In this document: positions 7,063 through 59,694 of the stretch, piece by piece | Position numbering within the stretch: the first letter of the stretch is position 1 | Layout: every line of letters starts with the position of its first letter | Assembly: GCA_951406725.2 (NCBI GenBank) | Contig: OX597826.1 | Coordinates: forward strand, 81,344,001-81,408,000 | Reading direction: 5' to 3' | Source of the DNA: Octopus vulgaris | Lineage: Eukaryota | DNA: 64,000 nt | Notes under the pieces: model-generated | What the model saw: the letters and a program-made list of their open reading frames with translations, nothing else | Databases searched by the model: none | What the model was told of the DNA's origin: nothing | Translations under genes and position numbers: made by a program

Positions 7063-8007
7063 ATGGCCAAAAAATTAGGAAAGTCCTCACCTGAGTGTGA
7101 TATCTGTGGAAAGTTATTCACTACAAAGGATCATCTTACTACTCATATACGTATTCATACAGGAGTGAAACCATATCAATGCGATATCTGTGGTAGATCA
7201 TTTTCTCGGTCTACTGAATTAACTACTCACAAACGTGTTCATACAGGAGAGAAACCATATAAATGTGATATCTGTGGTCAGTCATTTACACGTAGAGATG
7301 TTTTAACCAGACACAGACGTATTCACACAGGAGAGAGACCTTATCAGTGTGACACGTGTAGTAAATCATTCCCCAATAGTACGAACCTGACTGCTCACAA
7401 ACGTATTCATACTGGAGAAAAACCATATCATTGTGATTTTTGTGGTAGATCATTCACTCAAAATAACCAGCTAACTAAACACAAACGCATTCATACAGGA
7501 GAAAAGCCCTATCAATGCGATTTGTGTGATAAATCATTCTCTCGAAATGATAATCTAACAGCTCACAGGCACATTCATACAGGAGAGAAACCATATTGGT
7601 GTGATATCTGTGGTAAATCATTCCCTCGAAATAGTGCCTTGATTGATCACAAATGCATTCATACTGGGGAAAAGCGATTCCATTGTGATGTTTGTGGTAA
7701 AGCATTCGTTCAAAGTAATCTTTTAAAGGGACATATACGCATTCATACTGGGGAAAAACCATATCAGTGTGATATCTGTGGTAAATCATTTGCTAAAAGT
7801 ACTGCTGTAACTCTACACAAACATATTCACACTAAAGAAAAGCCATATCATTGCGATATCTGTGGTAAATCATTCTCTCGCAGAAATTATCTGGCTAAGC
7901 ACAAGAGTATTCATACAGCTTCAAGACTACATCACTGTAATATCTGTGATAAATCATTCTCTCAGCATGATGAATTAACTAAACACATATGTATTCCTAC
8001 ATCATGA
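7063..8007 (+). CDS. C2H2 zinc-finger gene 2, 314 aa, 11 fingers (last degenerate)
   Basis: Intact ORF; short N-terminus [11 protein letters not shown], then a tandem finger array. Confidence 0.93.
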
Positions 8008-8044
8008 GACAAAACACATCATTGATACAAACATTGTATCAGCA

Positions 8045-8646
8045 CTCTGATGCTGATGATCTTGAGAGAAAAGTTGAGCATAAGAGGCATGAGATGTGGT
8101 GTGAAAGAGAGATGACTGTGATGCGTATGGACGAGGACAACTGCATAAAGAAGTGCCAATCTCTAACTGTGGAGGGTAGCTAGGGTAGAGGTAGACTCAG
8201 GAATACATGGTACGAGGCAATGACTAGTGACCGAGACCTTTGACAATATGCTGTGCTTGAGAAAACTTGTCAAGCAAGGTGAAGTCGTAGTTGTGGATAA
8301 TGCTGGTTGCATGTAAAAAGCAGCTTTTGAGTGTTTGACCACACGGGGGCAATCACAGAGGCCTTTGGCATTGCGCCGTGCTAGAGAATAAAAACCATCA
8401 AGCCAAGTAAAGTCACAGTTGTGGAAGATACCGGTGTCATGCAAATGGCACCCGTGCCAGTGTGACTTAATAGCACCCATTACACTCTCAGAGTGGTTGG
8501 CATTAGGAATAGCCTTCAGCTATAGAAACCATGCCAAATCAGACTGGAGTCTGGTGCAGACTTCCCGCTTACCAGCTCTGGTCAAACTGTCCAACCCATA
8601 CCAACATGGACAACAGACATTAAATGATATTGATGATGATGATGAT
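8045..8646 (+). mobile_element. Degraded RTE 3' end within the 3' UTR of gene 2
   Basis: RMDEDNCIKKCQSLTVEG remnant, RTE tail and (GAT)n. Confidence 0.75.
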
Positions 8647-8689
8647 ATTACCAACAGTTTGGTTGTTGGTAATATCTTCAGTATTTCTT

Positions 8690-55578: not shown

Positions 55579-55690
55579 CGGATTCTGTTACTTCCGCCCA
55601 GAATCTACCAAAATCATTTCCAGCCAAGAACTTTCTCTCGTCTGAATCGAATTTATCCAAGAAATTATAAAGCTACGAGGAAAAGTAAGT
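55579..55690 (+). promoter_or_regulatory. Promoter/non-coding exon 1 of ZNF gene 7; donor 55685-55690
   Basis: Conserved motif plus GTAAGT; acceptor AG 58092-58093. Confidence 0.65.
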
Positions 55691-58494
55691 ATTTATAGTG
55701 TTTAAATGGATATAAAATATTTTGAGGACGGATCTTCGGAATAACTCTTTGGGGCAATGAAAAGAGCAAAGAATCGGGAAGGTTTTTGTCTTCGTCATTT
55801 CAATATTTTACGATTCTCCGCCAAAATTTCGATCAGAATCAGAATTTCCTTTCTATCAAACACAGAAATACGAGGAAAAAGTGCGCTGGCTTTCGAGATA
55901 GCTGTCGCAAATAAAAGGGAATTGCTCAGAGATTTCTTTTTTTAGCATTTTTCACCATTTTATAGAATCTCACTTGGCAAAACAAGATATTAATCGCCTT
56001 CTTAAAAAACGAAAAAAGAAAAGAAATTGAGTATCTTTGCTTCTTTGGAAATGTCTCAGTCTCTCTGTCCCTCTCAGTTACGCCTTCCGAATAACTGCCA
56101 CGATTCACAGGAATTAATTTCCTTCCCAATTTCCCGTCTCTTCTGAAATATTTACAATTCACATTAGAAATAATACAAAATAACAAAAACTACCAAATGC
56201 ACCTCACACTTCATCGCACCTTTAACGATCTGTAGTCTATACTCGAGTAGAAGCCGATCCCCTATTTTGGGCAAAAACTTGGTAATTTTCCATGGATCCT
56301 GTATAAAAGTTGACCCTAGTATATGACGAGTAACATTTGTGGGTCCAGATGCAGTATAATCCTGTACGTAGAAGTAACTTTTTGTTTCATTTCTACTGTA
56401 GGCACAGGGCCCGGAATTTTTTGGGTGGGTGTCAGTCGATTAGATCGAACAAGTACGCAACTGGTATTTAATTTATCGACCCCGAAAGGATGAGAGGCAA
56501 AGTGGACCTCGGCGGAATTTGAACGTAGGACATAAAGACAGATGAAATGCCTATTTCTTTCCTATCCACAAGGGGCTAAACACAGAGGGGACAAACAAGG
56601 ACAGACGAACGGATTAAGTCGAGTATATCGACTCCAGTGCGTAACTGGTACATATTTAATCGACCCTGAAAGGATGAAAGGCAAAGTGGACCTCGGCGGA
56701 ATTTGAACTCAGAACGTAGCGGCAGACGAAATAGGGCTAAGCATTTAGTGCTAACGTTTCTGCCAGCTGGCCGTCTTGTACGTAGAAATAACTTAGAAAA
56801 CTATGTATCCTGCTTTTAGGTGGAATGCTTGGTGCTTATAATGGAATGTTCAGTGCACCATTTAATAGAGTACACTACACACAAGTGAAGGAAAACTGCA
56901 AACAAGAGAAATAATATCCTTAAGATTATAAACCTGGAAGATTACAGGACAAGTTATTACCCCTAAAAATAGTTGAGGACAGCTTATTACAGAACAGGAC
57001 AATTTTTACTTAAAATATTGCAGCCAAGGATAAAATTTCAAATAAAATATTTAGAATTCGAAATTTGCCTACCATATATACTATTCTATTTTGCATAAAA
57101 CTTTAGCTATATTGATACTTCTGGCTCTCATTTTTTAAATATTCTAGTGTGTCAGTATTTTAACAAAATAATGATACCTCTTTTAATTATAATGTAAATT
57201 AAAATCAAATAATTTTAAATTTTCAAATTTTATCCTTAGCTGCAATATTTTAAGTAAATATTTTCTTGCTCTGTATTTTACCAGATGTAATAACCTGTTC
57301 TGAACTTTTCCAAGTGAAATAACTTGTCCTGCAATTTTCCAGGTTTATAATCTTAAGAATATTATTTCTCTTGCTCAAATTTTCCCATGTAATCCACGTT
57401 TTTTCCATGCTGTGCTGTTATGCTAATTAATAACGTGTCAATTAGTGGTGTCGTTGATAATTTTTCCTTACCCCAATAACATCGGTGACGTATATTAAAA
57501 GTCCCCTTATAGGACTATATTCATAGAAAGTATAGAACTATACTATCACCCTCAAATTGCAGAAACAAACACTCATTACCTTTTTCTTTTAAAACTTCAT
57601 TGCATGAGATTGATACCTTGAAGCTCCTTGAATCGATCTCTATCAATTAAGCCTAATTAAAATATAGTCTGTTTATAAAATTTAATAGTTAATTATACTA
57701 TAGTGTTGCGATAAGTTTTGATGTAAACTTTTTTCTTCTGGATCAAATCTCAATGATTTTTATGCCAAGATGTAGCTAGGGACCAGCCCTCTTCAAAAAT
57801 GTTAACAGTTTTCAATTCAGTTAAGAACCGAATTAGCGACAAGCTCTGAAAAATGCTGCATGGGAGCAAACTGTGGCCTTCCCAATATTATTCAATTACT
57901 ACTGTAGTTGAATGATATATATATATATATATATATATATATACATATCTATATGCACAGTATTATAGAGATACGCTGGAGGAGTTCATTCGTTCTAGTC
58001 AAGGTTTCACTTGTACAATTTATAAGTATAGCAATAACATTGATGCTGTTTATGTATCCTTGAAAGCTTATACTGTTTTCCTTCTTATTTCAGAATCAAA
58101 GCTGGAACTGGCATCAACATTTTTGTTTATCATACAACAGAAGCATCAACAATATTTATCATCTTTTAAAGACTAAAAATGTTATACTGAACAAATCTGA
58201 CCATTTTCACATAAATTTAATGAATGATGGTTGAAAGATTTCCCCTGGGTAAGATTATTAGCAACAGTTGTGTGTGTCATTCCCTGGAATGAGTACAATA
58301 CAATTCTGCATTGAAAATATATGAAGATCGATTTATGAAGCACTTTGCATCCAGATGATGGACTTGTAGCAGAAGGAATGTTTGTTAGAAATAAATTATA
58401 GAAAGGAAAACAGCAAACATAATATATTGTGGTGAGAGAAGGAAGAATTATTATTCAATGAAATAAACAACTGTTATTTTTTGGTTCTTAAAAG

Positions 58495-59694
58495 ATGGCA
58501 AAAAGCTTAGCAAAGTCTTCATATGAATGTGATGTCTGTAAAAAGTCATTAAGTTCAAGAGGTACACTAACTGCTCATGTACGTATTCATACAGGAGAGA
58601 AACCATATCACTGTGTTATCTGTGGTAAAAGATTCACTAGAACAGATGACTTGACTGTTCATGTACGTGCTCATACAGGAGAGAAACCATATCAGTGTGA
58701 TATCTGTGGTCAGTCGTTCACTCGTACAGATATTTTAACCACACACAAACGTATTCACACAGGAGAGAAACCATATCAATGTGATATGTGCAGTAAATCA
58801 TTCGCTAAAAGTACCAACTTAACTGATCACAAACGCATTCATACTGGAGAAAGACCATACCATTGTGATATCTGCGGTAAATCATTCAATCAAAATAACC
58901 AGTTAGTTAAACACAAACGCATTCATACAGGAGAAAAGCCTTATCAATGTGATACCTGTGACAAAGCATTCTCTCGTAATGCTGAGTTAATTGCTCACAA
59001 ATACATTCATACAGGAGAAAACCCTTATCAATGTGATATCTGTGGTAAATCATTCCGTCAAAATAACAAGTTAATTAAACACAAACGTATTCATACTGGA
59101 GAAAAACGATTTCATTGTGATGTTTGTGGTAAAGCATTCTCTCAGAGTACGGATGTGAAAATGCACAAACGTATTCATACCAGAGAAAAACAATATCACT
59201 GTGATATCTGTGGTAAATCATTCATTCGAAGTAAAGATTTAGAGGTCCATAAGCACATTCATTCTGGAGAAAAACCATATGATTGTGATATCTGTGGTAA
59301 ATCGTACGCACAAAGTAGTGCCTTAAATTCTCATAAACACATCCATACTGGAGAGGCACCATATCAGTGTAATATCTGCGGTAAATCATTCCCTACAAAT
59401 AATTCCCTGAGTGGTCATAAACGTATTCATACTGGGGAAACACCGTATCATTGTGATATCTGTGGTAAATCTTTCTCTCAAAGTACTGCTGTAACTGTAC
59501 ATAAACGTATTCATACAGGAGAGAAGCCATATTATTGTGATATCTGTGGTAAATCTTTCTCTCGAAGTACTGCTGTAACTGTACATAAACGTATTCATAC
59601 AGGAGAGAAGCCCTATCACTGTGATATCTGTGGTAAATCATTCAATCGAAATAGCCACGTAACTAGACACAAACGTATTCATACAGGAGAATAG
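58495..59694 (+). CDS. C2H2 zinc-finger gene 7, 399 aa, 14 fingers, TAG in a linker
   Basis: One extra 84-bp finger relative to genes 5 and 6; two in-frame fingers to TGA 59863-59865; decayed tail to 60298. Confidence 0.88.
   Translation: MAKSLAKSSYECDVCKKSLSSRGTLTAHVRIHTGEKPYHCVICGKRFTRTDDLTVHVRAHTGEKPYQCDICGQSFTRTDILTTHKRIHTGEKPYQCDMCSKSFAKSTNLTDHKRIHTGERPYHCDICGKSFNQNNQLVKHKRIHTGEKPYQCDTCDKAFSRNAELIAHKYIHTGENPYQCDICGKSFRQNNKLIKHKRIHTGEKRFHCDVCGKAFSQSTDVKMHKRIHTREKQYHCDICGKSFIRSKDLEVHKHIHSGEKPYDCDICGKSYAQSSALNSHKHIHTGEAPYQCNICGKSFPTNNSLSGHKRIHTGETPYHCDICGKSFSQSTAVTVHKRIHTGEKPYYCDICGKSFSRSTAVTVHKRIHTGEKPYHCDICGKSFNRNSHVTRHKRIHTGE

What the first reader, a model, noticed from the sequence alone, without database searches (positions are those of the whole stretch)
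7063..59694. Effector-less ZNF array with a conserved four-finger anchor and a hypervariable remainder
Seen: all six complete genes share the consecutive helices R(R/K/T)D(V/I)LT - (N/K)STNLT - Q(N/S)NQL - RN(D/A)(E/N)L near the N-terminus, while distal fingers vary in number and sequence. The N-termini are only about 11 aa. Inference: the conserved fingers could be a shared DNA anchor or a cofactor-recruiting surface replacing KRAB, with variable fingers giving specificity. That would be a KRAB-independent analogue of a TE-recognition system.
Basis: partly seen in the sequence, partly recalled or inferred. Interest (0 to 1): 0.7.

Follow-up and report, generated by a model that had tools for sequence, protein, structure and literature searches.

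The report
Octopus zinc fingers keep shared core
In an octopus genome, 28 duplicated zinc-finger genes have kept four neighbouring fingers almost unchanged at their predicted DNA-reading positions while the fingers on either side diverge, and they show no known effector domain, so they likely all grip one shared short DNA site and differ in the sequence they read beside it.

Summary
The six genes belong to a 28-gene C2H2 subfamily in three clusters on one chromosome; 26 of 27 scored genes share the four-finger block, and 0 of 65 control zinc-finger ORFs from six other groups do. The block reflects selection, not only ancestry: in 13 independent gene pairs, contact-residue pN/pS is 0.06-0.56 in fingers 3-6 against 1.0-1.7 in fingers 1 and 7 (p about 1e-16), with similar synonymous divergence. 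No upstream coding exon is evident: an invariant splice acceptor lies about 400 nt before the ATG, followed by a stop-filled leader. Many other octopus zinc-finger genes start with a weakly constrained 35-residue peptide; this subfamily lost its first 24 residues by a frameshifting deletion and starts at an internal Met. Best reading: a shared DNA half-site read by the core, with variable flanking fingers. A cofactor-surface role is possible but untested; transposon targeting found no support in a rough motif scan. Three window genes end at a shared premature TAG. No RNA evidence, no ortholog in another species found. Three look-ups found no earlier scan report of this core. A new variant of known poly-zinc-finger expansions.

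The parts
1..486 (+). 3' end of a seventh family gene (starts before the window; its core has diverged, contact match 8 of 16 by hand count)
6653..7062 (+). g1 predicted non-coding leader after conserved TTTCAG splice acceptor
7063..8007 (+). g1 ZNF ORF, 314 aa, 10 canonical fingers
7258..7593 (+). g1 conserved four-finger core
13536..13635 (+). g2 predicted promoter and non-coding exon 1 (donor GTGAGT at 13636)
16199..16603 (+). g2 predicted non-coding leader; last ~70 nt hold the decayed remnant of the ancestral 35-aa peptide
16604..17899 (+). g2 ZNF ORF, 431 aa, 15 fingers
16883..17218 (+). g2 conserved core (fingers 4-7)
29051..29150 (+). g3 predicted promoter (TTCCGCCC, TTTCCGG) and non-coding exon 1 (donor GTAAGT at 29151)
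31533..31929 (+). g3 predicted non-coding leader
31930..33375 (+). g3 ZNF ORF, 481 aa, 16 fingers
32125..32460 (+). g3 conserved core
37829..37940 (+). g4 predicted promoter and non-coding exon 1
40348..40744 (+). g4 predicted non-coding leader
40745..41860 (+). g4 ZNF ORF, 371 aa, 13 fingers (core = fingers 3-6), ends at premature TAG
45783..45894 (+). g5 predicted promoter and non-coding exon 1
47518..47915 (+). g5 predicted non-coding leader
47916..49031 (+). g5 ZNF ORF, 371 aa, 13 fingers, core 48111-48446, ends at premature TAG
55573..55684 (+). g6 predicted promoter and non-coding exon 1
58094..58494 (+). g6 predicted non-coding leader
58495..59694 (+). g6 ZNF ORF, 399 aa, 14 fingers, core 58690-59025, ends at premature TAG

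Best explanation
These are members of a 28-gene octopus C2H2 subfamily whose fingers 3-6 are under purifying selection at their predicted base-contacting residues, which have a predicted non-coding leader and no known effector domain, and which likely all bind one shared site of about 12 bases while fingers 1, 7 and beyond likely diversify to read different flanking sequence. Shown: the shared block, its selection pattern, turnover of distal fingers, the invariant acceptor and stop-filled leader, and loss of the first 24 residues of an ancestral 35-residue peptide. Inferred: that the block binds DNA (from conservation at helix positions -1, 2, 3, 6), that flanking fingers add specificity in a core-dependent way as described for ZFY and CTCF, and that without an effector the proteins act mostly by occupying sites and competing with other factors. 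The target is not identified.
For: 28 genes in 3 clusters carry the block. In 13 edge-disjoint pairs from 26 genes, nonsynonymous changes at contact sites were 20.5 of 468-502 sites in F3-F6 against 59 of 224-235 in F1+F7 (Fisher p about 1e-16), while synonymous divergence did not differ (p 0.10-0.23). Invariant in 27 of 27: F3 R-1 and D2, F4 N3, F5 Q-1 and Q3, F6 R-1. F1 contact pN/pS 1.25-1.68 (P 0.14 to 0.005 for kappa 1 to 3) and 27 matched distal finger pairs 1.22-1.62 (p 0.36 to 0.017); leader substitution rates point to kappa near 3. Controls: of six other groups (65 ORFs) only the C27 group shares a block widely (13 of 19 ORFs) and at much lower synonymous difference (0.049 against 0.180). 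Acceptor TTTCAG aligned in 27 of 27 leaders; purine at -3 and G at +4 of the ATG in 27 of 27, a YAG in phase 0 near the ATG in 1 of 27; exon 1 has no conserved ATG and substitutions spread evenly over codon positions (25, 29, 27; 4 pairs). Pfam finds only finger-type matches in the six proteins.
Against: No binding data and no target: the predicted motif was not enriched in high-copy DNA (0.41 and 0.43 against control ranges 0.13-0.75 and 0.29-0.71). Positive selection on flanking fingers depends on the assumed transition bias and is not corrected for multiple tests; neutral drift of contact residues is not excluded. Non-contact residues of the core are also more constrained than in F1+F7 (p 0.002), which a protein-binding surface would also give. 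An AG in phase 0 lies within 9 nt of the ATG in 18 of 27 genes, so a minor splice form cannot be excluded without RNA. Leader and core distances correlate only modestly (rho 0.33), so some recombination occurred. No ortholog from another species appeared in three crowded protein searches; 0 of 10 family ORFs are in the protein collection by exact sequence. Expression is not shown.
Confidence: 0.5

Rival explanations
1. The core is the whole functional DNA-binding unit; the paralogs are redundant copies for one target and the other fingers keep their fold but drift at contact residues.
For: Contact pN/pS of F7 (0.99-1.34) and, at kappa 1, of F1 and distal fingers is not distinguishable from 1. 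Four family genes lost distal fingers through a shared TAG, and finger number ranges from 7 to 16.
Against: At kappa 3, F1 (P 0.005) and distal pairs (p 0.017) exceed 1; non-contact residues of F1 and F7 stay under purifying selection (pN/pS 0.32-0.49).
Confidence: 0.25
2. The core is a protein-binding surface (cofactor or dimer partner) that stands in for an effector domain, and the variable fingers alone read DNA.
For: Non-contact residues of F4 and F5 have pN/pS 0.11-0.22 against 0.29-0.58 in the other five fingers; F4 keeps unusual residues in its hairpin (profile). The family lost most of the ancestral N-terminal peptide.
Against: The strongest contrast lies at the canonical base-contact positions, with canonical residues (R-1/D2, N3, Q-1) and intact TGEKP linkers. 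The lost peptide is itself weakly constrained (dN/dS 0.49-0.82).
Confidence: 0.15
3. An unseen upstream coding exon is spliced to an AG next to the ATG and supplies an effector.
For: AG in phase 0 within 9 nt of the ATG in 18 of 27 genes; one exon-1 frame is stop-free in 8 of 19 genes where a donor was called. For g1 and some others exon 1 was not found within 6 kb (22 of 27 had a match).
Against: The pyrimidine-rich stretch and AG before the ATG are the decayed codons of the ancestral peptide; the invariant acceptor lies ~400 nt upstream, with 3-21 stops per frame before the ATG in the windows scored; no conserved coding block other than repeat-derived and exon-1 frames upstream; public models of relatives begin at the homologous peptide Met in 9 of 10 looked up.
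Confidence: 0.06
4. The shared block is a by-product of recent duplication or gene conversion, with 5' fingers sheltered from unequal crossing-over.
For: The young C27 cluster shows the same 5'-shared, 3'-shuffled layout; three window genes are 97-100% identical in the core; F3 has the lowest synonymous divergence (0.135 against pooled 0.224).
Against: F1, still more 5' and equally diverged at synonymous sites, is highly variable at contact residues; synonymous divergence of core and flanks is alike.
Confidence: 0.04

Closest known systems
Coleoid cephalopod C2H2-ZNF expansion (PMC12513265, part 1 of 7 and passages; PMC9068888, passages)
   Same: Tandem clustered, lineage-expanded poly-C2H2 genes in an octopus.
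   Different: The passages seen do not describe finger-level selection, a shared core, or an N-terminal peptide; 'exon' has 0 occurrences in the main text of PMC12513265. Supplements were not read.
Vertebrate KRAB-ZNF clusters (PMC2604467, passages; PMC10547255, passages; PMC7289599, passages)
   Same: Tandem duplication, fingers on one exon, fast change at -1, 3, 6; paralog pairs such as ZNF160/ZNF665 keep some fingers constrained and bind overlapping targets.
   Different: No KRAB or other effector exon. In the largest human expansion each of nine aligned fingers had a positively selected site; here four fingers are held fixed across 26 paralogs. TE binding is shown for KZFPs, not here.
Cyprinid FiNZ-ZNFs (PMC10547256, passages)
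   Same: KRAB-independent expansion; octopus ZNFs as a group were predicted there to favour TE sequence.
   Different: FiNZ is a highly conserved 28-aa domain on its own exon; the octopus 35-aa peptide sits in the finger exon, is weakly constrained, and is mostly lost in this subfamily.
Core-dependent recognition in ZFY, CTCF, ZIM3, ZNF343 (PMC10287918, abstract and outline)
   Same: A subset of fingers reads a core site and other fingers read flanks only if the core is bound: what this likely works like.
   Different: Those are single genes; here the core would be shared by a paralog family with exchanged flanks. No homology to them beyond the generic finger was shown.
ZNF-only genes (PMC3971581, passages)
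   Same: 212 of 677 human ZNF models have no effector domain.
   Different: Those are mostly old and conserved; this is a turning-over tandem subfamily.

Membership tests
Poly-C2H2 (Kruppel-type) ZNF-only gene | Tandem 28-aa C2H2 repeats with TGEKP linkers | tested here: met
Poly-C2H2 (Kruppel-type) ZNF-only gene | No effector domain in the encoded protein | tested here: met
   By sequence only: 11-aa N-terminus in 27 of 28 genes, no effector family among the Pfam rows shown, non-coding leader; not checked on RNA
Cephalopod C2H2 expansion | Octopus lineage, tandem clusters | tested here: met
   Related N-terminal peptide found in proteins named Octopus vulgaris, O. sinensis, O. bimaculoides (10 of 10 looked up); clusters
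Cephalopod C2H2 expansion | Neural expression | not tested
   no expression data obtained
KRAB-ZNF | N-terminal KRAB domain on an upstream exon | tested here: not met
FiNZ-type ZNF (own conserved effector peptide) | Highly conserved short N-terminal domain on a separate exon | tested here: not met
   peptide in same exon, dN/dS 0.49-0.82 in 14 pairs, deleted in this subfamily
TE-targeting ZNF system | Positive selection at base-contact residues | tested here: inconclusive
   F1 and distal fingers above 1 only at kappa 2-3; core far below 1
TE-targeting ZNF system | Binding sites enriched in transposons | tested here: inconclusive
   rough motif from recalled code, 1.24 Mb scanned, within control range
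TE-targeting ZNF system | Repression of bound elements | not testable with these tools
   needs knockdown or reporter assay

The most novel reading that the evidence does not exclude
A combinatorial recognition system built without any effector domain: a fixed four-finger module, shared by about 27 paralogs, docks on one common element (a repeat or promoter motif) and itself recruits a cofactor, while positively selected flanking fingers give each paralog its own variant of that element; the subfamily arose by dropping an undescribed 35-residue N-terminal peptide that marks many other octopus zinc-finger genes.
Probability: 0.15. Interest if true: 0.7.

Novelty: new variant of a known kind. 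Interest (0 to 1): 0.4.

Why it matters
How the very large cephalopod C2H2 repertoire works without KRAB is open (PMC12513265 calls the transposon arms race an open question). This subfamily gives a concrete entry point: a 112-residue core whose selection pattern predicts one shared target for about 27 proteins, testable with one SELEX and one tethering assay. The gene-structure result (non-coding exon 1, finger exon with leader, a 35-residue peptide present in relatives and lost here) argues that many octopus zinc-finger genes have no strong effector domain at all. It does not show a new class of system.

Tried and rejected
RNA: no RNA holder on record was listed (rows were guesses) and no reads or contigs were laid, so splicing, expression and editing stay open. 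Protein searches for orthologs were crowded by generic zinc-finger proteins (best identities 60-65%); this is no evidence of absence. Exact look-up: 0 of 10 family ORFs found. A donor-like GTAAG inside the leader was considered as the end of a small coding exon and rejected: it is not conserved and the region has frameshifting indels. Exon 1 as a coding exon: rejected. Readthrough or A-to-I editing of the shared TAG: considered unlikely because the frame behind it ends after two fingers and the rest is decayed; a paper search gave nothing specific in its listing. The 35-aa peptide as a FiNZ-like effector: weak constraint, no convincing Pfam match (1 of 10 members, WW_1 at E 0.028); ascertainment favours full-length copies since they were found by searching with it. 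ESM Atlas returned nothing usable. Motif scan against repeats: within controls. PDB search gave generic finger arrays only. Selection was counted on pairs of present-day sequences with a simple Nei-Gojobori-type method, not with a codon likelihood model. Rows dropped: B75231902 (frameshift and stops) from all counts of 27, and also C73936502 (no matching start) from the 26-gene pair test. Albertin 2015 was not held: nothing seen; its supplement, and the unread supplements of the other papers, may describe octopus ZNF structure.
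Full report
1. What is in the window. Six complete C2H2 ORFs and the end of a seventh lie on the + strand, 7-15 kb apart, among SINE-like repeats and LINE fragments. Pfam shows finger-type families only among the rows listed. The last three genes are recent copies (core 97-100% identical) and stop at a shared TAG in a linker; behind it two fingers remain in frame and the rest is decayed. The genome is 2.8 Gb; public proteins with the related N-terminal peptide are all named Octopus (10 of 10), so the host is inferred to be an octopus.

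2. The family. A genome search with the core gave a top group of 28 matches at 76-100% identity, all on C13, before second copies and unrelated arrays (only 150 candidates were scored, so this is a lower bound). Fetching those regions gave 28 genes in three clusters at 73.9, 75.2-75.3 and 81.27-81.44 Mb, in both orientations. Six positions are invariant in 27 of 27. From finger 7 on, 160 fingers show 97 different fingerprints.

3. Selection or ancestry? All-pairs counts gave dS 0.32-0.55 for fingers 1-7, with contact dN/dS 1.51, 0.59, 0.35, 0.18, 0.03, 0.41, 1.73 (pairs not independent). On 13 edge-disjoint pairs from a tree of 26 genes, contact-site changes were 20.5 in F3-F6 against 59 in F1+F7 on half as many sites (p about 1e-16), synonymous changes did not differ (p 0.10-0.23), and non-contact changes were modestly lower in the core (p 0.002). 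So the core is held by purifying selection mainly at base-contact positions. Flanking fingers are at or above neutrality there; the excess is significant only with a transition bias of 2-3, which the leader tree supports. As controls, 65 ORFs in six other groups were scored: none exceeds 7 of 16 against the core; only the C27 group has a widely shared block (13 of 19), at a synonymous difference of 0.049 against 0.180 here. A shared 5' block is thus a common early state of a cluster, but its survival under selection was seen only here among the groups tested.

4. Is there an effector exon? An acceptor TTTCAG aligns in 27 of 27 leaders, mostly 330-440 nt before the ATG. The leader has stops in all frames, several upstream ATGs and frameshifting indels. 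A block 1.7-3.5 kb upstream in most genes looks like a promoter plus short exon ending in a GT donor; it matched in 22 of 27 genes, has no conserved ATG and no codon-position bias. The ATG context is strong in 27 of 27. The predicted structure is non-coding exon 1, intron, then one exon with leader and fingers. This rests on sequence alone; no RNA was laid.

5. A lost peptide. The leader also matches zinc-finger genes on other chromosomes. Many of these begin with a 33-36 residue peptide (MENELCE...IDFPDE, consensus motif) directly before finger 1; one such peptide gave 68 matches at E up to 1 in the genome, and 20 of 20 fetched matches lead into finger arrays. A profile search found 18 proteins, 17 with the peptide. 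Alignment shows that the window's family carries a ~34-nt frameshifting deletion in this peptide and starts at its internal Met, leaving 11 residues; a gene on C3 has a different deletion. The peptide's dN/dS is 0.49-0.82 (14 pairs from 28 genes) and it has no convincing Pfam match, so it looks like a weakly constrained leader rather than a KRAB- or FiNZ-like domain. Other short-start genes exist.

6. Mechanism. Shown: fixed core, variable flanks, no evident effector. Inferred: the core reads one site of about 12 bases (by recalled recognition rules roughly NCG KAA CAK NYG, low confidence); flanking fingers extend it, as in core-dependent recognition by ZFY and CTCF (PMC10287918, abstract); the proteins act by occupancy. 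Confidence 0.5. The main rival (0.25) keeps the DNA anchor but treats the other fingers as drifting. A cofactor surface (0.15) has some support from non-contact constraint in F4-F5. A scan of 1.24 Mb with the rough motif showed no enrichment in high-copy DNA over finger-order controls, so the transposon link is unsupported here, though octopus ZNFs as a group were predicted to favour TEs (PMC10547256, passages).

7. Comparison and novelty. Cephalopod C2H2 expansion and clustering are published (PMC12513265; PMC9068888). ZNF-only genes are a known class (PMC3971581). KZFP paralog pairs with partly constrained fingerprints and overlapping targets are known (PMC10547255), and expansions typically show positive selection at -1, 3, 6 (PMC2604467). 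Searches for an octopus finger core or N-terminal peptide (general ones 48, 66, 75, 76) listed nothing describing them; subscription papers and supplements were not seen. Look-ups in earlier scan notes showed none on this feature; one search showed one note on an octopus ZNF gene with an untranslated leader. Verdict: a real, selected feature and a new variant of a known kind; interest 0.4.

Noticed in passing
L043:4538-4642 and many loci (L040-L073): A 33-36 residue N-terminal peptide shared by many octopus zinc-finger genes on at least 12 chromosomes and in three Octopus species; no Pfam family; weak constraint.
   Followed up: partly
window 41858, 49029, 59692 and L010: Four recent paralogs share an AAG-to-TAG type stop in a linker; two intact fingers follow in frame, then decay. 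UAG could in principle be edited to UGG, not tested.
   Followed up: partly
window 41786-42031, 48957-49202, 59620-59865: The fingers around the stop look like a second copy of core fingers 5-7 (internal duplication; 74-78%).
   Followed up: no
window 53427-55346 (-): 639-aa open frame of a LINE reverse transcriptase (RVT_1) with a PHD-like finger; decayed relatives at about 1263-3458, 35277-36663, 51083-51756, 61751-62424.
   Followed up: no
L009:3293-4483 (gene ending at window 486): This paralog has three extra fingers before a diverged core (contact match 8 of 16), a possible escape from the constraint.
   Followed up: no
L074-L093 (C27:24.17-24.37 Mb): A young cluster with long arrays (up to 29 fingers) sharing its first four fingers in 13 of 19 ORFs.
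   Followed up: partly
window leaders, e.g. 31533-31929: Leaders hold 4-19 upstream ATGs each in the stretches scored and conserved blocks; possible translational control.
   Followed up: no
L010:5171-6367: A near-identical copy of g6 lies 10.7 kb downstream of it, outside the window; a very recent duplication or an assembly duplicate.
   Followed up: no
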